Source: an uncultured virus (IMG/VR IMGVR_UViG_3300049491_001058) (taxonomy: Duplodnaviria; Heunggongvirae; Uroviricota; Caudoviricetes). From it: a stretch of 20,000 nt of DNA. A program made the translations under genes and the position numbers. The DNA lies in the IMG/VR virus record IMGVR_UViG_3300049491_001058, one strand, 5' to 3'. Under the pieces are notes generated by a model. That model worked only from the letters and a program-made list of their open reading frames with translations, had not been told where the DNA came from and did not search any database. Position 1 is the stretch's first letter; each line of letters begins with the position of its first letter. Positions 3,481-14,383 of this stretch are shown in pieces.

Positions 3481-4389
3481 ATGAATTCTGTTTTCCCTGA
3501 TTGGCTAAATGCGAATTCCGGCAGAGCTTATCCTCTGTCGGAAAGCGGATCTTTGACGGACACGACGGGCGGAATAAAGATCCCCAACTCGCTGATTGTT
3601 GCTGCACAGATAAACATGCTGCCTTCTTATGCTGAGGGAACCTTCTTTATTCGGTCGATCGAGGCTTCCTTAACTCTTGTAGGTATTACGGTTGGATACG
3701 TCACTGGAGCTACCGAAAGAAACGTTGCGACAGTTTCTGTGCCCGTCAGCACTCATTCCGAAAACACAACCTATCCGTTTGTGGGAGCAGGAGACGACTC
3801 GACAGTTCTTGGCTCTATCACAATCGGAAGGCTTGAGGACACAATCGCCTCTGTTCCGGGTGCGATCTTTTTTTCTCCGTTGGCTACAAGTTTTGAAGTA
3901 AGTGCTCTGTTTGTTTCGTCTCCAGCACTTGAGGCGGTGGAGATATATAATGGCAGCTCCTTATTCAAGCGGTTCGAGTCAATCCTAAAGCTCAGGGCTG
4001 GAGAAAATCTTCGAATCAGCTACGTGGATGGAGACGTGAACACCATCAGGATTGATGCGATCTCTGGGGAGAATTTAGTAAAGCCGTCTGATTGTGAAAA
4101 TGCGACACCCTTGCCGGAATGTATTCGGACAATCAATGGCCAGTCGGCTGACGAAGATGGGAACTTTGAGATAGACGGAGGCAAATGTATTGAACTTAAA
4201 ACAGAGCCGGGACTGATTACGCTAAAGGATATGTGTTCGCAGTCGTGCTGCGGATGCACAGAGCTTGAGGCACTTCTGTCTAGCCTTAGTCAAGTTGAGT
4301 CACAGATCCTCCAGCTTAGATCGCAAATAAGCACAACCGTCACTCAGCAAAACCTGATGATCACGAACTTGGTTTCTAACCTTCAGTGA
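3481..4389 (+). CDS. Structural protein, paralogue 1 of 5 (302 aa), with CCGC motif and C-terminal coiled coil
   Basis: WLNANSGRAYPL...IPNSLIV; CIRTINGQSADEDGNFEI; CSQSCCGC followed by a heptad-like LEALLSSLSQVESQILQL. Confidence 0.7.
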   Translation: MNSVFPDWLNANSGRAYPLSESGSLTDTTGGIKIPNSLIVAAQINMLPSYAEGTFFIRSIEASLTLVGITVGYVTGATERNVATVSVPVSTHSENTTYPFVGAGDDSTVLGSITIGRLEDTIASVPGAIFFSPLATSFEVSALFVSSPALEAVEIYNGSSLFKRFESILKLRAGENLRISYVDGDVNTIRIDAISGENLVKPSDCENATPLPECIRTINGQSADEDGNFEIDGGKCIELKTEPGLITLKDMCSQSCCGCTELEALLSSLSQVESQILQLRSQISTTVTQQNLMITNLVSNLQ

Positions 4390-5939
4390 ACACTTTTCAA
4401 CAAGAATGGCAAACAGGAAACTCGACCACCGGTTTTCCCTTTTTGGATAGATCCGCGGAGTCTTCGTTACCAAAAGACTTCATCGTTGATCTGCGTCTAT
4501 TTCTGACCGGCACTCAGGTTGTTCAAGCTTACTTGTCGGGACTCTCCTATGATGACTCTCTCGACAACTATGTATTGCAGTTCTCGGAGCTTGTAGGGCA
4601 TAGTGTTGTTTTATCTGGAACAGTATCCAGACTTAGCGGGTCAGACACAAGAGTTGGATCAAAATCGAGCATATCGAGCGGTCCGAAGGTTTGCCTTTTT
4701 ACCCCAGGGGCCTCGTGGGATAACCCCACATGGGGTGGGGTGGGGTCGTGGTCTCTGAGTTTTCTCCCAACAGAAACAGAGCTGTCATCGGAGGTTGTTA
4801 ATCCTGGACCTTCGACCTTTCGTCGAATATTTATTGATGGTCAGGTCCCCAGCGAAGAGGAGTGGCCAAGAGGTGGCACTCAAAAGATCGTCGCAGGGTA
4901 CAACATCAATTTCGGAAACAGCAAAGGTCGAACAGTTAACTCCGCTTCTGGAGTGGTTGATATAGAAGCCTTCGGCGGTGCCGGAGAAGGGTATCCACCA
5001 GAAGTTAAGGTGGAGGTCAATTATTTAACCTCTATTGGTGGGGTCAAGCCAAGTAAAAACGGCAACGTCACAATTGACGGCTTTGACTGTTTAAGAGTTT
5101 CACAGCCAAAGTCTGATATCGGGCCGATTCCGCACACGCTTCAAATCGTCAGCGACTGCCTGCCTTGTTGCGGGTGCTCTGATTATTTAAACACATCCAG
5201 GGCTATCGGGCGTAGATCAGCAAAACTCAAAGATCTTTGTGATACGCTTCAGGCAATCCTGAGTAGCTCTGCGCTGGCCTACAATATTGGGGTGGAAGAG
5301 ATCAACAAAAGAAGGAAGCCTCTTGTTATTGTAAGAAACGTCAGGGCTCTAGGATCAAGCATCGCCTTTTCTGTGCAAAACATGACCGATATCCCGGTTT
5401 TTGCGTACGTAGCTTTTAGGGTGAGTCGCACTGAATACGCTCTTGGTCCGGCAGAGTCAGACATGTCAAATATCGTAGCCATCGGGTCGAGCCCTTTTGT
5501 CGGAACTCTTTCTGATGCTATTATAGCTCACAAAGAAACATTGATGGATCTTCCTTTTGATATCTCGGAGAGACCGCTTGCCGGGATTCCATCAACCAAT
5601 TTCGAAGATGAGGATGCCTACTTTCTGTTCTGTGTCGGGGAGAAAAAGAACTCTGTTGAGTTTTATCCAATATCCCCAGGAACCCTCGTAGAGTGTCGGA
5701 TTGTTTTCCCAGAGAGGGCTGCGGCAATGGCTCTTGCTACAGGAACAAGCGGATCTGTTGCGGCGGCCCTTCCAGAGGTGTCGTTTTCGTCCATAGCTGT
5801 GTATGGGGCATCAAAGTCGTTTCCGTGTTCAGCAGACAAGCATGAGGTGAAGGTTGTTGAAAACGACGACACCCCAGACGAGTTTGAGGACTGTGACCGT
5901 CCATTTGCGAATGACTTCAAAACGGTTCTTGTTGTATGA
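4386..5939 (+). CDS. Structural protein, paralogue 2 of 5 (517 aa), with CCGC motif, helix and extra C-terminal domain
   Basis: GTGA start/stop overlap. WQTGNSTTGFPF...LPKDFIVD; LTSIGGVKPSKNGNVTI; DCLPCCGC. Confidence 0.7.
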   Translation: MNTFQQEWQTGNSTTGFPFLDRSAESSLPKDFIVDLRLFLTGTQVVQAYLSGLSYDDSLDNYVLQFSELVGHSVVLSGTVSRLSGSDTRVGSKSSISSGPKVCLFTPGASWDNPTWGGVGSWSLSFLPTETELSSEVVNPGPSTFRRIFIDGQVPSEEEWPRGGTQKIVAGYNINFGNSKGRTVNSASGVVDIEAFGGAGEGYPPEVKVEVNYLTSIGGVKPSKNGNVTIDGFDCLRVSQPKSDIGPIPHTLQIVSDCLPCCGCSDYLNTSRAIGRRSAKLKDLCDTLQAILSSSALAYNIGVEEINKRRKPLVIVRNVRALGSSIAFSVQNMTDIPVFAYVAFRVSRTEYALGPAESDMSNIVAIGSSPFVGTLSDAIIAHKETLMDLPFDISERPLAGIPSTNFEDEDAYFLFCVGEKKNSVEFYPISPGTLVECRIVFPERAAAMALATGTSGSVAAALPEVSFSSIAVYGASKSFPCSADKHEVKVVENDDTPDEFEDCDRPFANDFKTVLVV

Positions 5940-6841
5940 GCACCACAAACCATGGATGGCTAACCAGAAATTCTTTGAGAAGCTTCCCGGTCAGAGAGGG
6001 GGCTCAGGTGATTGCGTCAAACTCTGGATGGAAGCTTGATCCATCTTTGATTGTTGATGTCAGTATTTTTTCGGACCTTCCTGGGGACCCTCTTTTCTGT
6101 ATTCAGTCTGTTACAGTAACGAGGGCTATTTGCTCTGTTGTGATAGGCAACGCTGTTGATGGAAGAAGCTTGGGCTTTACTTCATTTACATTGGGCTCGT
6201 CTCTTTTGTCTGCCAAGATTACTCCGTTCGTTGATGGAGTTTCTGGGTTTGTTTGCTGTGGACCGGCAATGTTGGCCGAGAACTACAAGATGATACCAAC
6301 AGGGATACATGATTTTGGGAGTGCCGCGATCTTGGAGTCTCGGTGCGGAATCTCGATCGGAAACTTTCCCATAAAATCAATCAGATCAGCTGGGGGAGCT
6401 CCTCTTTACAGAGATGTGACAATTGAGACCGGATCCTCCTTGTTGATTGATGAGTCCGCAGAAGAGGGGGACGACGGTCTTGTAACCCGACTAACCCTTT
6501 CACTTGAGAAACCGGCCAGCTTTTTGTCCCCGTGCGAAGAGCCTCTATCTATTTGTGATTGCCCATCAGTCCCTATTCAGACGATCAACGGGATCTCCGG
6601 AAACGAAGACGGGATAATTTTTATCGAGATTCAGGATGAAAATGGAAGCATTTACTTGTTGGATCAAAACACCTTGTCTTTTTTGATTACTGGATCAGGA
6701 ATTCAGTTGTGCTCAAGAACTCCAGTGCCTGACGAATACGGAAGACTTCCGGACGCTTCCGGGCTCTATGATAAAGATCTTCCTCCGTCCAGTGACTACC
6801 AAAATCCTCAAGATCTAAACTTTCCCCTCCCTGTGATTTAA
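5936..6841 (+). CDS. Structural protein, paralogue 3 of 5 (301 aa)
   Basis: ATGA overlap. WLTRNSLRSFPV...LDPSLIVD; PCEEPLSICDC...IQTINGISGNEDGIIFI. Confidence 0.7.
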   Translation: MSTTNHGWLTRNSLRSFPVREGAQVIASNSGWKLDPSLIVDVSIFSDLPGDPLFCIQSVTVTRAICSVVIGNAVDGRSLGFTSFTLGSSLLSAKITPFVDGVSGFVCCGPAMLAENYKMIPTGIHDFGSAAILESRCGISIGNFPIKSIRSAGGAPLYRDVTIETGSSLLIDESAEEGDDGLVTRLTLSLEKPASFLSPCEEPLSICDCPSVPIQTINGISGNEDGIIFIEIQDENGSIYLLDQNTLSFLITGSGIQLCSRTPVPDEYGRLPDASGLYDKDLPPSSDYQNPQDLNFPLPVI

Positions 6842-7540
6842 ATGTCGAACATCCTTCAGTGGAGAAGTATCTCTGAGCAATCTTCATTTCCATTTTGGGA
6901 AGGATCCTCTGTGGACCTTAATCGAGCAATCATAGATGCTCGAATAAACCTTCCTCACCAAAGCGGCGGAGCTTATTTGAAATCAGTTTCTCGGGTCGGT
7001 GACTCCGTAAAGATTGAGGTGTATTCAATAGAAGAGGTCAAAATAGGAACCCTGAATATTGACCAAAGCGCCGAGAGCGCGGTCGAACTAGTTAACGATA
7101 CAGGGATCCACACAGGCCTGATTGTATTTAACAAAGAGGAAGCGATGGGCCTCAAGCCAAAGACCTACAGTAAAGAGCAGACAGCGTTTGAAAAGACATG
7201 CTGTGTCTCCTCTCCATTCAGAAGGGTCTCCTCCTTGTTGGCCGGAAAGACAAAAGCTGTGGGTCACGTAGCTCTCGTTGAAGGGGCCGGGATCAGGATC
7301 ATAAAAGTGAATGAAAACTTGATCAGACTGGATGCGATTGGCGTTCCGGCCGTAAAGGCAGCTTGCTGCGCAGAGGTCGGCGACCCAGTTCTTGGAATAA
7401 ATGATGCGATCCCCGATCGCTATGGAGCTATTCGTTTTGGGCTTCAACCATTTACAGAGCCGGACACGTCGTCGGACTTAATCCAACTTCTCCGAATCTC
7501 CACAAAAACGAATGGTCTTAACTTTTATCTATCAAAATGA
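6842..7540 (+). CDS. Structural protein, paralogue 4 of 5 (232 aa)
   Basis: ATG abuts the upstream TAA. WRSISEQSSFPF...AIIDARI; LVEGAGIRI...IRLDA; ACC...VLGINDAIPDRYG. Confidence 0.68.
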   Translation: MSNILQWRSISEQSSFPFWEGSSVDLNRAIIDARINLPHQSGGAYLKSVSRVGDSVKIEVYSIEEVKIGTLNIDQSAESAVELVNDTGIHTGLIVFNKEEAMGLKPKTYSKEQTAFEKTCCVSSPFRRVSSLLAGKTKAVGHVALVEGAGIRIIKVNENLIRLDAIGVPAVKAACCAEVGDPVLGINDAIPDRYGAIRFGLQPFTEPDTSSDLIQLLRISTKTNGLNFYLSK

Positions 7541-8346
7541 CAGACGCTTTTGTAGAATTTTTAACCGAGAACTCCCAGAGGTCTTATCCTTTTGAGGAGA
7601 ACTCTGTGTTGAAGGCGGACGACGACAGCGTTTTGCAGGATGACATTTTACTGGACTTCATCCTTATTCATCGGCTCAAGCATCTAACTGCAAAACTTGT
7701 TGCGATTGTTGGGCCGGAATCCAGTGGGGCGGAGATTTTTCCTCCAGGAGAAACAGGACCGGTGTTCTATTTTCAACTAGGGTCCGGCAGCGACATTGTC
7801 GCAGTTGAATGCTCATCACAAGAGTTCCCGTTCGATGGGTGGGGAAGCATTAGTGACTCCAGATACGAAGACGTCTTTGTTGCAAAAGCCAGGGTGACTT
7901 TTGGTGCCGGTGTGTCCTCGATCCCTTCGGACGTTTTTTGGCAATTTAGTAATTCGGTTATCGAGCCAGGACTGCTGGTGTCGTTATTCAGGAACCAAGT
8001 AGATTCATTAACTATTATCCATGATGAAGGAGATAATGATATTGTCGGCGGAGACGTCTCTTTGATGGGTGGTTACAATTTTGGAGTAACGCAGTCAGGC
8101 CAGACAGTTCGCCTATCTCCCGCTTTGGGAAGCGGTTCGCTAGGGCGCTTTACTGAATCCCTATCAGACGCGGTGAGTTCAAAATGCAATGGATCCCTTC
8201 TTTCTATTAACGGAATTCAGCCAAACGAAAAAGGGGCTTTTGAGATCTCTGGTAGTGGAGGGATAGAGATATTAAACTTCCCAGAGCAACACAAGGTACG
8301 AATAGTAATAAGTCCGGAAACGCTGGGGAGGACAATTTGTGTCTAA
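7537..8346 (+). CDS. Structural protein, paralogue 5 of 5 (269 aa)
   Basis: ATGA overlap. [12 protein letters not shown]...[37 protein letters not shown]. Confidence 0.7.
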
Positions 8347-8731
8347 GTCTTCATGTGGATTCTACTCCCCAATTATCTCGGCCTGTAGTCCATCAAGCGC
8401 AGAGATTACATCGTTCTGTAGAATACCAAGAAGAGGTCTTCCGGCTATTGTCCCTGGTATTCCTGGAAGGCCGGGGTGCGAGGGCGCTCCAGGCTTAGCT
8501 GGCATAGGCCCGACAGGGCCAATGGGACCCTCAGGGCCGATCGGGCCAACTGGTCCAATAGGACCTACTGGACCTACTGGACCTACTGGACCCACTGGGC
8601 CACAAGGATCAGAGGGTCCAGCGGGACCAACAGGACCCAAGGGAGCGACAGGGCCAAGAGGTGATGCTGGATCAGACAGTTCTGGCACAGAGTGCGAAAC
8701 CTCCTGCGCGAAGTGTTTTTATCTTCAATAG
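8339..8731 (+). CDS. Short collagen-like protein A (130 aa) with Cys-rich caps
   Basis: 5+19 Gly-X-Y triplets separated by a GI imperfection. N-cap CGFYSPII..C...C; C-cap [11 protein letters not shown] start overlaps the upstream gene by 8 nt. Confidence 0.85.
8561..8596 (+). repeat. 9-bp tandem repeat (GGACCTACT x3 + GGACCCACT) encoding GPT x4
   Basis: Directly visible; a recent expansion of collagen triplets. Confidence 0.9.
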
Positions 8732-8740
8732 TTCTCAATA

Positions 8741-9118
8741 ATGAACTGCAGCTTTTTTACTCCAATTATTTTAAATGGCGCAGTAGATCCACCGTCACTG
8801 AGTTCTATATGTCTGACCCAACGAAGATTTTTGATTGGGTTTTTAGGAACACCTGGGACACCTGGATGTATAGGGCCTACTGGCCCAGATAATGTGGGGG
8901 TGGTTGGACCAACAGGGCCATCAGGGCCGATTGGCCCAACAGGGCCTACGGGTCCGATTGGTCCTGTTGGTTCGGCTGGATCGGCTGGTGGCGCAGGCCC
9001 TGGAGGCTCTGGAGGAGCGCCGGGATCATCTGGTCCAACAGGGGCTTCCGGCGGACCAGGAGGTGACGGACGACCAAAAGGGTGCGATAATTGCGTTACT
9101 TGTGAATACGCAACATGA
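8741..9118 (+). CDS. Short collagen-like protein B (125 aa) with Cys-rich caps
   Basis: 6+20 Gly-X-Y triplets with an NV interruption. N-cap CSFFTPII...C; C-cap CDNCVTC. Confidence 0.85.
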
Positions 9119-9495
9119 TCTGTGATTTTTTTACCCCAATTATTCAGTCGCCATGTCTTGCGATCGCACCAGACATTCTGTCATTATGTAAATCTCCAAA
9201 GACAAACTTTGCTTGGATTTTTGCACCGAAAGGAAAAAGCGGAGCGCCAGGATGCATAGGAACATCTGGAGAGGTCGGTTTCGCCGGAGAGACGGGTCCT
9301 GTCGGACCATCAGGCCCAGGAGGTGCTGCTGGCGGCGGCGGAAGCGGAGGTTCGACGGGGTCGCCAGGGGCGGCTGGTCCAGCTGGACCCGTAGGGCCAA
9401 CAGGTCCGACAGGACCAGCTGGGTCTGCAGGGCCAAAAGGAAAAGATGGTTGCGCTTCTGAAATCGGTGTATGTAATCAAGCAATCTTTCGCTAA
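9115..9495 (+). CDS. Short collagen-like protein C (126 aa) with Cys-rich caps
   Basis: 25 uninterrupted Gly-X-Y triplets. N-cap CDFFTPII...C...C; C-cap [13 protein letters not shown] overlap with B. Confidence 0.85.
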
Positions 9496-9497
9496 TT

Positions 9498-10856
9498 ATG
9501 GGCTCAGATATTTGTACAAGCATGGCAGGCAGACCAATCTCGGGAATTTCTATCACCCAGGATGATACTTGCGTTAGCTGGACGCACTTGGTTGGACTGC
9601 GTCTTCAGTACAATAGAATCTGGGATAAGCTAAATGACTGCGGAGTCAGTATCGTCAATGGGAAATACGGAGAGGGGTCTCACAGAGAGGAGATCAATCC
9701 ATTACCAACCATTGAGGGGTTTTTTCGTTTAACAGTAAATGCGACAGGAAACGTTAATGATGGCTATGTCTGCAGCGTAGCTTCCGACTCTGATGTTCAT
9801 TTTATTCTCACAGGAGGAACACTGTTAACGGAAAACAGAATTAATACGCCATCCTTGTGGAGCTACTTGGATAGCCAAGGGGCCAGAAAGCCCTTCGCTG
9901 CACAGCTTAAGGATGGTTGTAAAAACTGCTCTAAGTTTCATCCGACAACGCAATCTCCGGCTGATGAATCCATTTCATGTCTCGGAGACGAAACGACTCC
10001 TTATGCCGGGTTCATAAAAATGAACTTTGAGCAAGCCCTTACTGGGTGCGGAGATATTTGGGACTGGGGAGAAAATATAGAAGAACTCAAGGACCACGTA
10101 AATAACTTCGACTGCTACAAGACACTTGCTCCAGAAGATACAGACAAATGTACGGACACTGTCGTATCGTGCTGTGAGGATGTTTATGATATAGGCAGGT
10201 ATGAGACCGTTGGAACAAACTCCCTTGGATTCGAGGTTGTTGCGTTAAAATATGTAGACATCTACGTCTCGGACATTGGAGACCCAAAGCTCGAGGGGTA
10301 TTTAGCTCCATTAATTTATAGCAGCGAGCCAACCCAGATCAGGGATCGTGTAGAAGCGGTCATAAATAATTTTTCTCTTCTCGGCGACTATCTATGTGAT
10401 TCGTGTGGGCCAGTTCTTGATATAGAGGGCTGCGGCCCCGGAAAAGGATTTAAATGCGAGGTGCCATTTACTTTTTCAGGTATTCAGGAGTCTACTGTAG
10501 TAGCTGGAGTATCGTGCTCACAATGCGATGAGGCATTTTCTGGACATATATGTGCTTGTCCGTGGGTTGAGCTCGCAGCGGTAATGGATTTTATTCTAAA
10601 TTACGGGTGCGTGATTGGATGCAGTCTTGAAGATTGCACCTGCCCGACAACAGTCATTGTTGGGTGTATGAATGTGGAGGCCTGCAACTATGACCCATCA
10701 GCTACAGAAAACGACGAAGAGTTGTGCCAATTCTGCTTAGAAGAGGAGTGTATAGACGGAGAGTGTATAGACGCTCCAATCTACGGGTGTATGGATCCCG
10801 GCGCGATCAATTTTAATCCATCAGCAACAATAGATGATGGATCATGCATTTATTGA
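9498..10856 (+). CDS. Acidic cysteine-rich protein (452 aa, 32 Cys) ending in two GC-x-[DN]-x2-A-x-N-[YF]-x-PSAT-x-[DN]-D repeats; candidate fibre tip/adhesin
   Basis: Repeats GCMNVEACNYDPSATENDEELC and GCMDPGAINFNPSATIDDGSC; several CxxC/CxC pairs; lies directly after the collagen trio. Confidence 0.7.
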   Translation: MGSDICTSMAGRPISGISITQDDTCVSWTHLVGLRLQYNRIWDKLNDCGVSIVNGKYGEGSHREEINPLPTIEGFFRLTVNATGNVNDGYVCSVASDSDVHFILTGGTLLTENRINTPSLWSYLDSQGARKPFAAQLKDGCKNCSKFHPTTQSPADESISCLGDETTPYAGFIKMNFEQALTGCGDIWDWGENIEELKDHVNNFDCYKTLAPEDTDKCTDTVVSCCEDVYDIGRYETVGTNSLGFEVVALKYVDIYVSDIGDPKLEGYLAPLIYSSEPTQIRDRVEAVINNFSLLGDYLCDSCGPVLDIEGCGPGKGFKCEVPFTFSGIQESTVVAGVSCSQCDEAFSGHICACPWVELAAVMDFILNYGCVIGCSLEDCTCPTTVIVGCMNVEACNYDPSATENDEELCQFCLEEECIDGECIDAPIYGCMDPGAINFNPSATIDDGSCIY

Positions 10857-10859
10857 TTT

Positions 10860-11435
10860 ATGTATCTCGCACACAATCAGCTAAAGGTAATAGGGTTTGC
10901 TGTTTTGTTGGCAATGGCTAACAAGAAAGAGGCTCGGGCTATACTTGTGGAAAAGTTTCCAGAGCTGGACTGGCTCAATGACGAAGCTCAGCTAAACGCA
11001 TCAAATCGGAAGATCAGAATCTTGTCGGCATTTCGCTCAAAAGGTGACGAAATCGCTGAGTTTTTGCACGAAAACAACAGGACCAGTCCTGTGGTCAGTA
11101 AAATAATAACAGCTTACTGGGAAGAAGTTACAAAGCAAAAGGTCATAGACCTACCCAAAAGAGAGGATGATCCAAAAATAGAAGCTTCAGTGGCGGAGAT
11201 GGGAGCTTCTCTGGTTGGAGCGATGCTTGGTGTGGCAAAAGACATGGTTCAAGGAAGGCCGGTAACAGTGGAGCCGGAGGAACTGGATAGGCGGATGGCT
11301 ATTTGCGCAGGCACAGACATCGAGCCTAAGTGTGAGTTTTTTGCTAGGGAGTCTGGACGGTGCTCAAAGTGTGGATGTTTTGCGAAATTCAAAAACCGCC
11401 TGAATACATCATCTTGCCCTATTGGTCGTTGGTGA
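10860..11435 (+). CDS. Protein with a C-terminal DUF6171-like Cys-rich domain (191 aa)
   Basis: RRMAIC-x8-CEFF...RCSKCGCFAKFK...SSCPIGRW matches the R..IC..C...C..CGC...K......CP..KW pattern I recall for DUF6171; needs HMM confirmation. Confidence 0.7.
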   Translation: MYLAHNQLKVIGFAVLLAMANKKEARAILVEKFPELDWLNDEAQLNASNRKIRILSAFRSKGDEIAEFLHENNRTSPVVSKIITAYWEEVTKQKVIDLPKREDDPKIEASVAEMGASLVGAMLGVAKDMVQGRPVTVEPEELDRRMAICAGTDIEPKCEFFARESGRCSKCGCFAKFKNRLNTSSCPIGRW

Positions 11436-11449
11436 TACCTTTTTGCGAT

Positions 11450-13357
11450 ATGAAGCATTTTGTCCTATTTATCCTTCTTTTTGCAGCAACAAAGACTTGG
11501 TCTCAAAGCCCGAACGCCCAAAGCTCATCGGCGAAACTTGTTGCCTCGGATTTACAAGCTAGAGCAGAGAAAGGGATAGCAAACGGATACGCCCCACTAG
11601 GGGACGGCGCTATTGTCCCCCCAGCAAACCTGCTTCCTGGATTTTCTGGAGCAAGCGACAACACAATTTGGGTAAAGTCAGGGGCGGCCCTCGCTCCACT
11701 GGGAGGGATTACGGCTTCTAGTGGAAATATCACAGCCAACAGTGTGTTCATTGGGCTTTTGGCCTCAGGAATCCCTGGAATTAAAGTAGACTCCGACTCA
11801 TATCCACTGTTTTTGCGTGGAGGTAGCGGCAATAAAGTGATGGTTGATTATGGACAGTCGATTGGCGGAGCAAATTCCCTGAGAAGCGAGTATCTGTGGA
11901 GCATTTCGAACGCGGGAGCTTTTGTTTTTGCCGGAGGGAGCTTTACTGGGGACATTGACTTCAATTCATCTGCGATATCAGAGGTTGGGACCATTGCCGG
12001 AACCGCCTTATCTATCAATATGGCGACCCCAACGATCACTTCATCGTCTGGAAATATAACAATGGCAGTGCCATCGCTCGCTGGCGTTATTGTCCCCTCG
12101 ACAGCGTCGGCCGTGAATGCCACTTTTGCCCTTAACCCTACATCGGCGAATGCTCTTTATGGAAGAAAGGCCTCAACTAACACCTGGGACTCAGTCCAAA
12201 CGTTCTCTGTCGCGCCTGTTGTCCCCGACAGTTCTTTTACTGTAGCAAAAACAACGTCTCTCCAGACCTATTTAGATGGTGCTCTAAAAAAGGATGGGTC
12301 GAACGCCATGTCGGCCAATCTAAATATGACAACCTCTGGCACAAAATACAGGGTTGTCGGAATGGCTGATCCATCAAGCTCTGCAGACGCTGTCACAAAA
12401 GGATACCTTGAGGCTCATTATGTTATGAATCCTGTATCTCAGGTCACGGCAACGACTCCTGTTGTGACTAGCGCTTCGACTGGATCAATAGTTTTGTCTA
12501 TGCCGGCGGCTACTGGATCTGTCGCCGGGTATCTTTCGGCAGCGGACTGGACAACCTTTAATGGCAAACAGGCGGCCCTCACCGCAACCGCACCGCTTTT
12601 AATCTCTGGGTCAGTCATTTCAATGCCAGTGGCTGGGGCTGCACAAAACGGGTACCTGTCCGCTGCCGACTACAACCGATTCGTATGGGCTTCTCCGCCG
12701 AACAGTTCGCCGTGGCTTGATAATGAAATAATGGTCGGTGATACTGCCGAAGGCACAGCTATTAAAAAGATACTGGTTGCTGGGAGCAACGTGGCACTGG
12801 CCAATACTTCGCCATCGGTAACTCTATCTGTCGCCCCAAAACAAAGCCTACTTGTTTCTGTTGCCCCAAAGTCTTCCTTCCTTTTGAATTCGATCATAGC
12901 GCAAGGCCTTGAAACTAATGCCCAAAGCGGGGCTCCTGGATCTATTTATAGTTACGCTATCCCGGCAGACACATTAGCTGTTGGAGATACCGTCACAGTA
13001 AGAGTGACTGGATCTTTCGTCACGACAAGCACGGGGACAATGACGATGTCGGCCACAATAGCTTCAACAGTTATTCCATCAGCAACAGTCACGGCTCTAG
13101 CTGGATCAGCAGAGACTCCCTATATTTTCGAGCTATTTTTTACCGTGAGGAGCTCGACCTCCGTTTCGTGCGTGACGAGACTTACTTCCTGCGGTACCAC
13201 TGTTGTTTCTGCCTCGGTAGACGTGACAGCTCCAACCCTAATTTCATCAGGCCTTGATTTTACTGGAACAACAACCGTGAATATCAAGGCTTACCATGGG
13301 GCCTCGAACGCCTCGAACCATGTGTATGCCGAAACAGGAACAACCAGATTGAACTGA
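11450..13357 (+). CDS. Tail-fibre-like protein (635 aa) with an apparent Sec signal peptide
   Basis: ATG at 11450 follows the upstream stop, whereas the ORF-track start at 11360 overlaps it by 76 nt. N-terminus MKHFVLFILLFAATKTWSQ. Fibre motifs KGIANGYAPL...VPPANL, MADPSSSADAVTKGYL and two GYLSAAD[WY]..F repeats; Ser/Thr/Ala/Gly-rich. Confidence 0.75.
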   Translation: MKHFVLFILLFAATKTWSQSPNAQSSSAKLVASDLQARAEKGIANGYAPLGDGAIVPPANLLPGFSGASDNTIWVKSGAALAPLGGITASSGNITANSVFIGLLASGIPGIKVDSDSYPLFLRGGSGNKVMVDYGQSIGGANSLRSEYLWSISNAGAFVFAGGSFTGDIDFNSSAISEVGTIAGTALSINMATPTITSSSGNITMAVPSLAGVIVPSTASAVNATFALNPTSANALYGRKASTNTWDSVQTFSVAPVVPDSSFTVAKTTSLQTYLDGALKKDGSNAMSANLNMTTSGTKYRVVGMADPSSSADAVTKGYLEAHYVMNPVSQVTATTPVVTSASTGSIVLSMPAATGSVAGYLSAADWTTFNGKQAALTATAPLLISGSVISMPVAGAAQNGYLSAADYNRFVWASPPNSSPWLDNEIMVGDTAEGTAIKKILVAGSNVALANTSPSVTLSVAPKQSLLVSVAPKSSFLLNSIIAQGLETNAQSGAPGSIYSYAIPADTLAVGDTVTVRVTGSFVTTSTGTMTMSATIASTVIPSATVTALAGSAETPYIFELFFTVRSSTSVSCVTRLTSCGTTVVSASVDVTAPTLISSGLDFTGTTTVNIKAYHGASNASNHVYAETGTTRLN

Positions 13358-13358
13358 C

Positions 13359-14081
13359 ATGAGCCAAACCATCATCACCGTTTCGAAAAACGAGAGCGCC
13401 TCCTTGCAAAGTAATGGTGGTGGTAAGTCTGGCTACCGGGTCGATCTTGCTGTTGTTGACGCAATAGGTATCACCCCGAAGATATTTGTGATGCAGCGGG
13501 AAGTTGTGTCGTCCGGAGATAGTGGTGATTACGAGGATCAATTTTATTCAGTGTCTTCTGTTTCACAGCTTGAATCAATCGGTGAGACCCCGTCACTGGA
13601 AACGCCATTCTACCGAACCGATTCAATAAGTTTGATGTTTCAATCAGTAGAGGATGAAAAACTTTACACTGACCAGATCCTTTTATTTATCAACAAGCTT
13701 CGCCTAGCAAACGACTTGGCTAACACAATGACCGGGGAGCAAATAGTAGGTTTCCCTCCGGAAGCGTTGCCTCGTTTTTGGGGATTCTCTCTTGAGACAA
13801 CAATAACAGATGAGATCCTTTTGGCTGGAGCCTCAGATCTTGTCTATTCAAAAGCTCTGACCAAAACGCTGTCGATCACTGGTGCTGCAAAATACGGATA
13901 CCTTGCAATTCGAGAATCATTGGGAGAGATCGACTCCTTAACCATTGGTTCTGTTGAAAAAACAACTCAGGTGACAACTAGAGATGTCGAAGTTTTGGAT
14001 GGACTATCTGTTTCGTATCGAATATACAGGACAGATAACACAACTGCGGCAGCAACATCTATCCTCTTTGAAGCAGAATGA
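13359..14081 (+). CDS. Hypothetical virion-associated protein (240 aa, probably two domains)
   Basis: Starts 1 nt after the upstream stop. The C-terminal YGYLAI..SLG...YRIYRT.N pattern is common in phage structural beta-sandwich domains. Confidence 0.6.
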   Translation: MSQTIITVSKNESASLQSNGGGKSGYRVDLAVVDAIGITPKIFVMQREVVSSGDSGDYEDQFYSVSSVSQLESIGETPSLETPFYRTDSISLMFQSVEDEKLYTDQILLFINKLRLANDLANTMTGEQIVGFPPEALPRFWGFSLETTITDEILLAGASDLVYSKALTKTLSITGAAKYGYLAIRESLGEIDSLTIGSVEKTTQVTTRDVEVLDGLSVSYRIYRTDNTTAAATSILFEAE

Positions 14082-14383
14082 TCATTACGGCTCAAAAAGC
14101 TCTAAACATAGTGAGCAACCACGCTGTGGTGAAAAAGGTCCCCGAGCTGTTGTCGGCAGTGGAGCTGTTTGCTGAGGCCGATCGCGCCTATCGCCCCAAG
14201 AAGGGGTGCGGTGACTGTAAAAAAGCTGACTTCTTCTCTCCTGTCGAAAACAAGGCACTGGAGGCTATTGCAAACCTTTCTCCGGATGCTATTTTAAGAT
14301 TGAAGGCTTTTCTTGGAGTTAAAGATCTATACTTAAATCCAATAGTCCCAGGCAAACAAGCAACCCTCAGAGAGCTCAAATAA
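14078..14383 (+). CDS. Small basic hypothetical protein with CxxC (101 aa)
   Basis: ATGA overlap; KKGCGDCKK motif. Confidence 0.65.
   Translation: MIITAQKALNIVSNHAVVKKVPELLSAVELFAEADRAYRPKKGCGDCKKADFFSPVENKALEAIANLSPDAILRLKAFLGVKDLYLNPIVPGKQATLRELK

What the first reader, a model, noticed from the sequence alone, without database searches (positions are those of the whole stretch)
8339..9495. Three tandem Cys-capped mini-collagens: a candidate heterotrimeric viral collagen
Seen: three adjacent 125-130-aa paralogues share C-x-F-[FY]-[ST]-PII, a further Cys about 21 residues later, an invariant PGC-x-G near the start of the Gly-X-Y tract, near-equal helix lengths (24, 26 and 25 triplets) and Cys-containing C-caps, yet they diverge elsewhere. 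None has a large trimerisation or receptor domain. Established: characterised bacterial and phage collagen-like proteins are generally homotrimers with globular trimerisation domains, whereas short collagens flanked by Cys-rich caps recall cnidarian minicollagens and cystine-knot chain registration in animal collagens (analogy only). Inference: the three chains form an A:B:C heterotrimer, or end-to-end polymers, locked by disulfides or metal, making a thin fibre segment between the five-paralogue module and the Cys-rich tip protein.
Basis: partly seen in the sequence, partly recalled or inferred. Interest (0 to 1): 0.75.

Follow-up and report, generated by a model that had tools for sequence, protein, structure and literature searches.

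The report
Three-chain Cys-capped phage mini-collagen fibre
Three neighbouring tiny collagen genes of an uncultured large tailed phage most likely supply the three different strands of one mixed collagen fibre, a design so far described only in animals, but this has not been shown physically.

Summary
Three adjacent + strand genes (130, 125 and 126 aa) each encode a 3-4-Cys N-cap, 24-26 Gly-X-Y triplets and a 12-17-residue Cys C-cap. The only Pfam match is Collagen.

The same eight-gene block (five paralogues, then three capped collagens) occurs in two other phage lineages from IMG/VR. Copy number is three in all 3 lineages and gene order is the same.

- **C-caps:** they group by chain type across lineages (p about 2e-4).
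- **N-caps:** they group by genome (p about 1e-3).
- **Helix length:** the distance between the Cys knots is 72/72/73, 87/80/82 and 652/643/645 residues. It changes about nine-fold between lineages but stays matched within each genome, although the paralogues are only about 64-78% identical in DNA.
- **Helix breaks:** they line up between chains.
- **C-cap Cys totals:** 8, 8 and 10, even in every trio.

Best reading (about 0.6): an A:B:C heterotrimeric collagen fibre in the tail/baseplate-fibre gene region of a contractile-tailed phage, with the asymmetric C-terminal Cys knot setting its register. Three separate homotrimers remain possible (about 0.25).

The Cys-rich "tip" protein downstream is absent from the two relatives, so it is not a conserved partner. 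The complex prediction gave no verdict.

The parts
8339..8731 (+). Chain A mini-collagen (130 aa). N-cap is residues 1-39 (Cys 6, 16, 27). The Gly-X-Y tract is residues 40-113: 5 triplets including G-C47-E, a 'GI' break, then 19 triplets. The C-cap carries Cys 119, 123 and 126 and ends FYLQ.
   Evidence: A GGAGG lies 7 nt before the GTG start, and the gene overlaps the upstream ORF by 8 nt. A-type C-caps occur in L003 and L006.
8741..9118 (+). Chain B mini-collagen (125 aa). N-cap has Cys 3 and 24; the middle Cys of the other chains is Gly here. The helix has G-C43-I, an 'NV' break at the same place as the break in A, and 26 triplets in all. The C-cap is C115-x2-C118-V-x-C121-E-Y-A-T.
   Evidence: The B-type C-cap C-x2-C-V-x-C-x-[YW] is conserved in L003 and L006.
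9115..9495 (+). Chain C mini-collagen (126 aa). N-cap has Cys 3, 14 and 25. There are 25 uninterrupted triplets from residue 40, including G-C47-I and a final G-C113-A. The C-cap is ...V-C120-N-Q-A-I-F-R. The start overlaps the stop of B (ATGA).
   Evidence: The C-type end (G-C-A ... C-x-Q-A-x-F-x) is conserved in L003 and in L082 (the continuation of L006).
3481..8346 (+). Five tandem paralogues (302, 517, 301, 232 and 269 aa) directly upstream. They are conserved one-to-one and in order with the collagen trio in the two related lineages, and are the likely docking or baseplate-periphery module.
   Evidence: (1227 library proteins at E<=1e-3). The AF2 model of paralogue 1 has pLDDT 86.9 and no clear match among solved structures.
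9498..10856 (+). It is listed to mark that it is NOT a conserved partner of the trio.
   Evidence: No family match. No relative in viral contigs or in records G001-G003. No blastp match in L003, L083, L006 or L082.

Best explanation
The three genes encode the three different strands (A, B, C) of one heterotrimeric collagen-like fibre of a large uncultured tailed phage. Its relative in the same clade has a tail-sheath gene, so the tail is probably contractile.

Proposed mechanism (inferred):
- The genes are made in near-equal amounts from tightly packed, partly overlapping reading frames.
- The short C-caps differ by chain type: A is C-x2/3-C-x2-C-[FL][YF][LM][QR], B is C-x2-C-V-x-C-x-[YW], and C is G-C-A...C-x-Q-A-x-F. 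They come together in one asymmetric Cys knot of 8 Cys, held by disulfides or by Cys-bound metal. This knot selects one chain of each kind and sets the register.
- The proline-poor, almost uncharged helix of about 72 residues (about 21 nm) zips up from the knot.
- The three similar N-caps, plus the Cys in the third triplet, form a pseudo-threefold plug. The plug anchors the fibre to the virion, probably on the five-paralogue module encoded just upstream.

The fibre is a length-tunable whisker, about 21 nm here and about 185 nm in one relative, for contact with or spacing from the host surface.

Shown: gene anatomy, conservation, length lock-step, cap pattern and aligned breaks. Inferred: co-assembly, knot chemistry, attachment site and function.
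For: 1. Copy number and order. Exactly three capped collagen genes lie in the same slot after the five paralogues in 3 of 3 lineages with this cap: the window; L002=L003=L004 at 143/137/143 aa; and L005=L006 at 719/700/703 aa.

2. Chain identity. C-caps are more alike between the same chain type in different lineages (mean score 2.71, n=9) than between chains of one genome (1.03, n=9; one-sided MWU p=2e-4). N-caps show the reverse pattern (1.13 against 1.87, p=1.3e-3).

3. Length lock-step. The distance from the GC-triplet Cys to the first C-cap Cys is 72/72/66 residues in the window; chain C gives 73 to its Cys120, the Cys that aligns with the others. It is 87/80/82 in L003 and 652/643/645 in L006.

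4. No recent homogenisation. DNA identity between paralogues is low. The window gives one 83-nt HSP at 70%. L003 gives HSPs of at most 63 nt at 73-80%. L006 gives about 64% over 0.9-1.4 kb, and its best short HSPs are 76-77%. Recent gene conversion therefore does not explain the equal lengths.

5. Breaks in register. The window's A and B break at the same place. All three L003 chains break 8-11 residues and again 64-70 residues after the GC Cys. In L006, 4 of 9 B-chain breaks coincide within 5 residues with breaks in both A and C, against 0.47 expected. P=0.0008 by random placement and 0.0037 by circular shift.

6. C-cap Cys totals per trio are 8, 8 and 10, all even. A B-only trimer would have 9 in every lineage.

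7. No chain has any Pfam domain other than Collagen.

8. Pro makes up 15-22% of the helix and there are 4-7 charged residues per helix. By established knowledge of bacterial collagens, such a 25-triplet helix should need covalent or metal end-locks.

9. Genome context. In relative G002 the block lies in the structural region that also holds a weak major-head match and a tail-sheath match (phrog_279, 1.4e-12); the large terminase lies elsewhere in the record.
Against: - No physical or structural evidence exists. The one complex prediction gave no verdict (see Tried and rejected).
- The sample is only three lineages. Two IMG/VR lineages are represented by 5 contigs that are identical within each lineage over these genes.
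- Equal lengths and aligned breaks could also be kept by selection on three separate homotrimers that span the same distance. They could also partly be inherited from an old conversion of the helix region.
- At tolerance 3 the L006 break coincidence is not significant (1 of 9, P=0.19).
- Only 4-5 of 9-16 breaks per chain coincide.
- The L003 knot-to-knot distances differ by up to 7 residues.
- The window's N-cap Cys total is odd (11).
- In 43 of 80 related viral loci, by my crude pattern, the same slot holds a single large capped protein. A one-gene, presumably homotrimeric, form is therefore the commoner state of the wider family.
- The p-values come from non-independent pairs.
Confidence: 0.6

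Rival explanations
1. Three separate homotrimeric fibres (AAA, BBB, CCC). Each docks by its N-cap on a different site of the five-paralogue module and carries a different short C-terminal tip. Equal length is selected because the three fibres act side by side.
For: [quoted passage not shown]
- The commoner state of the wider family is one capped fibre gene per slot: 43 of 80 loci by my pattern.
- Earlier notes of this scan on other phages (e1-5860141, e1-5380535) judged length-matched collagen trios to be separate fibres.
- Only some L006 breaks coincide.
Against: - There is no trimerisation or chaperone domain on any chain.
- A B-only trimer would carry 9 C-cap Cys in all three lineages.
- Breaks do line up here, unlike in the earlier cases.
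- N-caps are homogenised within each genome while C-caps stay chain-specific. That pattern fits one shared plug and one asymmetric knot better than three independent fibres.
Confidence: 0.25
2. Mixed or higher-order assemblies. Examples are trimers of variable composition (A2B and the like), C1q-like bundles of several trimers tied through the N-cap Cys, or head-to-tail Cys-linked polymers as in cnidarian minicollagens.
For: - Cys are present at both ends of every chain.
- The window's N-cap Cys total is odd (11), which leaves one Cys free for a link outside the trimer.
- N-caps are similar enough to be interchangeable.
Against: - Strictly conserved chain-specific C-caps and 1:1:1 gene content argue for a fixed composition.
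- The L006 lineage reaches about 650-residue helices within single chains, not by polymerising short units.
- No polyproline stretches or six-Cys minicollagen-type domains are visible in the sequences.
Confidence: 0.1
3. The ORFs are not real genes, or are pieces of one broken fibre gene.
For: Chains A and B lie in the same reading frame only 9 nt apart.
Against: - Each ORF has its own start and a complete N-cap, helix and C-cap.
- The same three-gene structure recurs in two other lineages with intact frames.
- Pfam Collagen scores above its cut-off in all three.
Confidence: 0.02

Closest known systems
Complement C1q collagen stalk (A, B and C chains; animals)
   Same: Both have three paralogous chains from three neighbouring genes, a short collagen helix of matched length, a break in the Gly-X-Y tract at a shared position, and Cys near one end of the helix. 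The C1q details are recalled, not checked here.
   Different: There is no gC1q globular head; Pfam finds only Collagen. Chain-specific elements are 12-17-residue Cys caps, and the context is a phage virion gene block. No sequence relationship was found.
Cnidarian minicollagens (PMC2289959; only the search listing and start of the abstract were seen)
   Same: Both are very small proteins with a short central Gly-X-Y tract (14-16 triplets there, 24-26 here) flanked by Cys-containing ends.
   Different: The minicollagen polyproline stretches and the regular six-Cys domains (recalled) are not present. Here the caps have 3-4 Cys at the N end and 2-3 at the C end with different spacing. The relatives' helices reach about 650 residues. 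This is analogy only.
Phage collagen-like tail fibre proteins (PHROG 5073, 819, 6320, 366, 8745 and others)
   Same: The Gly-X-Y tracts match these tail-fibre families at E values of 5e-15 to 1e-7, and the genes lie in a tail/baseplate-fibre gene region.
   Different: The matches cover only the collagen repeat. Those families are 250-1800-aa profiles with other domains. These proteins are 125-130 aa, come as a conserved trio, and have no globular domain.
Cystine knots at the ends of animal collagen helices (collagen III C-terminus, FACIT junctions) and synthetic Cys-knot heterotrimers (recalled)
   Same: Cys sit directly at the end of the triple helix and are positioned to tie three chains and fix their register.
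   Different: Here each chain has its own Cys pattern (3+3+2), conserved across lineages. Disulfide against metal chemistry is untested, and assembly would start in a bacterial cytoplasm.
Bacterial collagen-like proteins Scl1/Scl2 and BclA (review PMC8968730, passages read)
   Same: Both are non-hydroxylated prokaryote-type Gly-X-Y helices, and GPT-rich triplets occur here too.
   Different: Those are homotrimers with a globular trimerisation domain. Here there is no such domain and there are three distinct chains.

Membership tests
Collagen triple-helix repeat (Pfam PF01391) | Gly-X-Y repeats scoring above the Pfam gathering threshold | tested here: met
   scores of 41.4, 30.2 and 33.8 bits against a cut-off of 27.2; 24, 26 and 25 triplets.
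Bacterial/phage homotrimeric collagen-like proteins (Scl, BclA type) | A globular non-collagenous trimerisation domain on the same chain | tested here: not met
   no Pfam family other than Collagen. The flanks are only 32-39 aa (N) and 12-17 aa (C).
Bacterial/phage homotrimeric collagen-like proteins (Scl, BclA type) | Assembly from three identical chains | not testable with these tools
   The comparative evidence favours three different chains. The complex prediction gave no verdict.
Phage fibres with a C-terminal Peptidase_S74 intramolecular chaperone | An S74 chaperone domain at the C-terminus | tested here: not met
   no such Pfam hit. The chains end 12-17 residues after the helix.
C1q family | A C-terminal gC1q (PF00386) head | tested here: not met
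   no hit.
C1q family | Three paralogous chains from adjacent genes with matched collagen length | tested here: met
Cnidarian minicollagens | N- and C-terminal six-Cys domains and polyproline stretches flanking the helix (pattern recalled from memory) | tested here: not met
   the N flank has 2-3 Cys and the C flank 2-3 Cys with other spacings. No polyproline run is present.
Capped fibre genes of the wider phage family (long N-cap, single large protein) | Homology of the short N-cap with the long 3-4-Cys N-cap found at the same gene slot | tested here: inconclusive
   hhalign probability 2.2%, E=0.021. Only the shared slot and a C-x-[FI]-x-P...P-x-[IVL]-x-x-C resemblance seen by eye support it.

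The most novel reading that the evidence does not exclude
This is a natural ABC heterotrimeric collagen outside animals. Chain selection and register are set not by a globular domain but by a roughly 12-residue, chain-specific Cys knot (disulfide or metal). Evolution has tuned its length from about 21 nm to about 185 nm while keeping the three strands matched.
Probability: 0.5. Interest if true: 0.85.

Novelty: new variant of a known kind. Interest (0 to 1): 0.72.

Why it matters
[quoted passage not shown] It also says that making heterotrimeric collagens with a controlled register is a practical difficulty, solved so far by borrowing animal domains of 35 or more residues.

If this trio is an A:B:C helix registered by three 12-17-residue caps, two things follow. 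It would be the smallest natural heterotrimerisation and registration device for collagen, and it should be directly usable for recombinant heterotrimers in bacteria. It would also show that mixed-chain collagen arose independently in phages.

My literature searches listed no paper that describes a phage heterotrimeric collagen. They cover only the held open-access library.

Tried and rejected
- **Complex prediction of A+B+C:** score 0.30 against a mark of 0.32. No verdict, so it counts neither for nor against.
- **Searches for more relatives of the caps:**
  - N-cap of B and N-cap of C: none found.
  - Whole chain C: 7 hits among 576 candidates, all generic collagen-like proteins without the caps.
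- **Searches with neighbouring genes:**
  - The 452-aa and 750-aa proteins in viral contigs: none.
  - P0005, an orthologue of paralogue 5 from a closer unseen relative, in viral contigs: none.
  - The single metagenome scan: one contig (L001) that ends inside paralogue 5 and is therefore uninformative. The closer relative implied by P0002, P0003, P0005 and P0016 could not be reached.
- **GenBank phage searches:** the blastn of window 8000-11000 found only collagen-repeat matches in 5 records, and the tblastn of the 750-aa protein found no match.
- **Genome contigs:** 6 MAG contigs with five different taxon labels and no trio. No host could be inferred.
- **No genome is held for the window.**
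- **Fold of paralogue 1:** good model, but no convincing match in the PDB (best E 0.055), BFVD (best E 0.004, weak tail proteins) or VIA-wide (best Z 4.9).
- **Pfam sheath and terminase models on relatives:** no hit. PHROGs did find a sheath and a terminase in G002.
- **Homology of short and long N-caps:** not supported.
- **Charge complementarity between chains:** too few charges to discriminate. Only a shared charged patch is visible near the C-end in the window and at offsets of about 40-145 in L006.
- **ESM Atlas look-up for the 452-aa protein:** no usable hit.
- **Promoter/terminator scan:** promoter-like sites are at or below the shuffle mean. Terminator-like sites (19) exceed the shuffle mean (11.5, sd 3.2), but those inside the trio are minimal 5-pair stems (8692-8709, 8950-8964).

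Full report
**1. Observation**

The window carries a one-strand block of tightly packed genes. At 8339-8731, 8741-9118 and 9115-9495 lie three ORFs of 130, 125 and 126 aa. Chain A overlaps the upstream ORF by 8 nt. B starts 9 nt after the stop of A. C overlaps B in ATGA. The next gene starts 2 nt after the stop of C.

- C-x-F-[FY]-[ST]-P-I-I near the N-terminus.
- A further Cys 21-22 residues later.
- P-G-C-x-G in the third triplet.
- 24, 26 and 25 triplets.
- C-caps with 3, 3 and 2 Cys.

Pfam finds Collagen above its cut-off in each chain and nothing else. PHROG matches are confined to the repeat region of tail-fibre families.

One detail is new. After five triplets, A and B have a two-residue element ('GI' and 'NV') where C has a full triplet. 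Two chains therefore share a break at one position.

**2. Relatives**

The caps have no detectable relatives in the large protein collections at the sensitivity available.

The five upstream paralogues belong to a large family: 1227 proteins at E<=1e-3 among 1.84 billion representatives. Using that family as a handle, 80 IMG/VR loci were fetched and scanned for Gly-X-Y ORFs and cap-like N-termini.
- Five loci, from two lineages, carry three tandem capped collagen genes at the same slot. L002, L003 and L004 are identical over these genes, as are L005 and L006.
- 43 of 80 loci carry one large (222-1665 aa as held) protein with a longer 3-4-Cys N-cap, often with collagen tracts.
- 32 of 80 loci gave no match to my crude patterns.
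- The 6 MAG contigs from genome contigs gave none.

blastp shows one-to-one synteny between the window, L003 and L006: a 204-aa-like gene, a 750-aa-like gene, the five paralogues in order, then the collagen trio (ORF maps).

Downstream the order differs. L003 and L006/L082 continue with homologues of the window's 240-aa, 101-aa and 665-aa proteins. The window's 452-aa Cys-rich and 191-aa proteins have no counterpart there.

**3. The trios compared**

Chain lengths are 130/125/126 aa (window), 143/137/143 aa (L003) and 719/700/703 aa (L006 plus L082).

| Lineage | GC-triplet Cys to first C-cap Cys, residues (A/B/C) |
|---|---|
| Window | 72/72/66 (chain C gives 73 to its Cys120, the Cys aligned with the others) |
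| L003 | 87/80/82 |
| L006 | 652/643/645 |

The paralogues are not recent copies. blastn between them finds one 83-nt HSP at 70% in the window and HSPs of at most 63 nt at 73-80% in L003. In L006 it finds about 64% over 0.9-1.4 kb, with short stretches up to 77%. The equal lengths have therefore been kept through long divergence of a repeat that should gain and lose triplets easily.

Breaks also line up.
- In L003, all three chains break 8-11 and 64-70 residues after the GC Cys, and two of them break at 43-45.
- In L006, 4 of 9 B-chain breaks have a break within 5 residues in both A and C. The random expectation is 0.47, with P=0.0008, or 0.0037 by circular shift. At tolerance 7 the count is 5 of 9. 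At tolerance 3 it is 1 of 9, which is not significant.

Part of this could be inherited from a shared origin of the helix segments, so I count it as supporting evidence, not decisive evidence.

**4. Caps**

C-caps fall into three types that follow gene order in all three lineages:
- A: ...C-x2/3-C-x2-C-[FL][YF][LM][QR]
- B: C-x2-C-V-x-C-x-[YW]...
- C: G-C-A...C-x-Q-A-x-F-x

Scored with BLOSUM62, the same chain type across lineages averages 2.71 per residue. Different chains of one genome average 1.03 (p=2e-4). For N-caps the pattern is reversed, 1.13 against 1.87 (p=1.3e-3) (the pairs are not independent).

The triplication therefore predates the split of the three lineages, and the C-caps have been kept distinct. 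The N-caps have stayed alike within each genome.

This mosaic fits two roles. The three N-caps would form one shared, pseudo-symmetric plug. The three C-caps would form one asymmetric knot that tells the chains apart.

C-cap Cys counts per trio are 3+3+2, 3+3+2 and 4+3+3, all even. A B-only trimer would have 9 in every lineage.

The helices have 15-22% Pro in the window and 4-7 charged residues each. From general knowledge of non-hydroxylated collagens, so short a helix should be weak without end-locks.

**5. Context**

The relative G002 (L006; 131 kb; CheckV estimate 73% complete) encodes the following:
- a weak major-head match;
- a tail sheath (phrog_279, 1.4e-12);
- a large terminase (phrog_675, 5.5e-43);
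- a DNA polymerase, helicases, a primase, ribonucleotide reductase and thymidylate synthase.

The paralogue-collagen block lies downstream of the sheath gene in the same structural region. More distant relatives are complete at about 205 kb. The window therefore most likely comes from a large contractile-tailed phage, and the block sits in its tail/baseplate-fibre gene region.

Paralogue 1 folds confidently (pLDDT 86.9) into beta-sandwich domains plus a C-terminal long helix. It has no convincing structural relative.

Whether the short N-cap is homologous to the long N-cap of the single-gene relatives is unresolved.

**6. Explanation and rivals**

| Reading | Confidence |
|---|---|
| A:B:C heterotrimeric fibre | about 0.6 |
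| Three separate homotrimers kept at equal length | about 0.25 |
| Other stoichiometries or bundles | about 0.1 |

The homotrimer rival is favoured by precedent and by the single-gene state of most of the wider family. It does not explain several points:
- the lack of any trimerisation domain;
- the odd Cys count of B-only trimers;
- the contrast between N-caps and C-caps;
- the aligned breaks.

Earlier notes of this scan on other genomes reached both outcomes for other collagen trios. They used break alignment and per-chain chaperone domains as criteria. By those criteria this case falls on the heterotrimer side. Those notes are unchecked leads and I do not count them as evidence.

The complex prediction gave no verdict.

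**7. Comparison with known systems**

The trio works most like the C1q stalk: three adjacent paralogous chains, matched helices and a shared break. Its use of Cys at the helix ends resembles the cystine-knotted ends of animal collagens. It is a member of neither family, because it has no gC1q head and no sequence relationship to them.

It resembles cnidarian minicollagens only in size and in having Cys at both ends.

It belongs to the broad class of phage collagen-like fibres, but it differs in being a conserved three-gene set of minimal chains. [quoted passage not shown] Five literature searches listed no paper describing a phage heterotrimeric collagen within the held library.

**8. Verdict**

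The 'tip protein' and polymer parts of the reading are not supported.

I rate the finding a new variant of a known kind, with interest 0.72.

Noticed in passing
window 3481-8346: The five tandem paralogues share an N-terminal W-x3-N-S-x-R-x-[FY]-P motif and an I-N-G-x6-G motif. Paralogues 1 and 2 add a C-S-x-S-C-C-G-C motif followed by a long helix. The family is large (1227 library proteins at E<=1e-3) and has no PHROG or Pfam name. The confident AF2 model has no clear structural relative.
   Followed up: partly
window 9498-10856: The 452-aa Cys-rich protein has two C-terminal copies of a small G-C-M-[ND]-x2-A-x-N-[YF]-[DN]-P-S-A-T motif. It has no family match and no relatives in viral contigs or in the two related phage records. 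It seems to be an insertion specific to this lineage, together with the 191-aa protein after it.
   Followed up: partly
window 10860-11435: The 191-aa protein has a Cys-rich C-terminus that matches phrog_13558 (3.7e-14) and, weakly, DUF6171. Its end overlaps the long ORF 11360-13357, whose likely true start is the Met at about 11450, before a signal-peptide-like stretch.
   Followed up: no
window 11360-14383 compared with L083 and L082: Gene order is rearranged. In the window the 665-aa fibre-like protein (signal-peptide-like N-terminus, repeated G-Y-L-S-A-A-D motifs) precedes the 240-aa and 101-aa genes. In both relatives it follows them.
   Followed up: partly
L037, L042, L057, L064 (about 16000-20880) and G004-G007: In more distant phages of about 205 kb, the slot holds one 1446-1526-aa capped fibre protein with 101-119 collagen triplets. 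A separate collagen ORF of about 260-330 aa follows it directly and starts with a G-G-C-G-[VI]-C-P or C-T-S-C-P motif. This is a different two-gene collagen arrangement.
   Followed up: partly
L086 12873-17111 (MAG contig labelled Phycisphaerales): An ORF of at least 1412 aa, cut by the contig end, holds a run of 373 uninterrupted Gly-X-Y triplets next to a paralogue-1 relative.
   Followed up: no
L082 5549-6700 and L092 2476-3444 (G002): Glycosyltransferase-like genes lie in the relative's genome, one of them a few kb downstream of its collagen trio. GPT-rich helices might be glycosylated as in BclA. This is speculation.
   Followed up: no
window 8362-8688 (-) and 9140-9556 (-): Long antisense ORFs lie inside the collagen genes. 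They are expected by-products of the periodic GGN-CCN coding sequence and are not genes.
   Followed up: no
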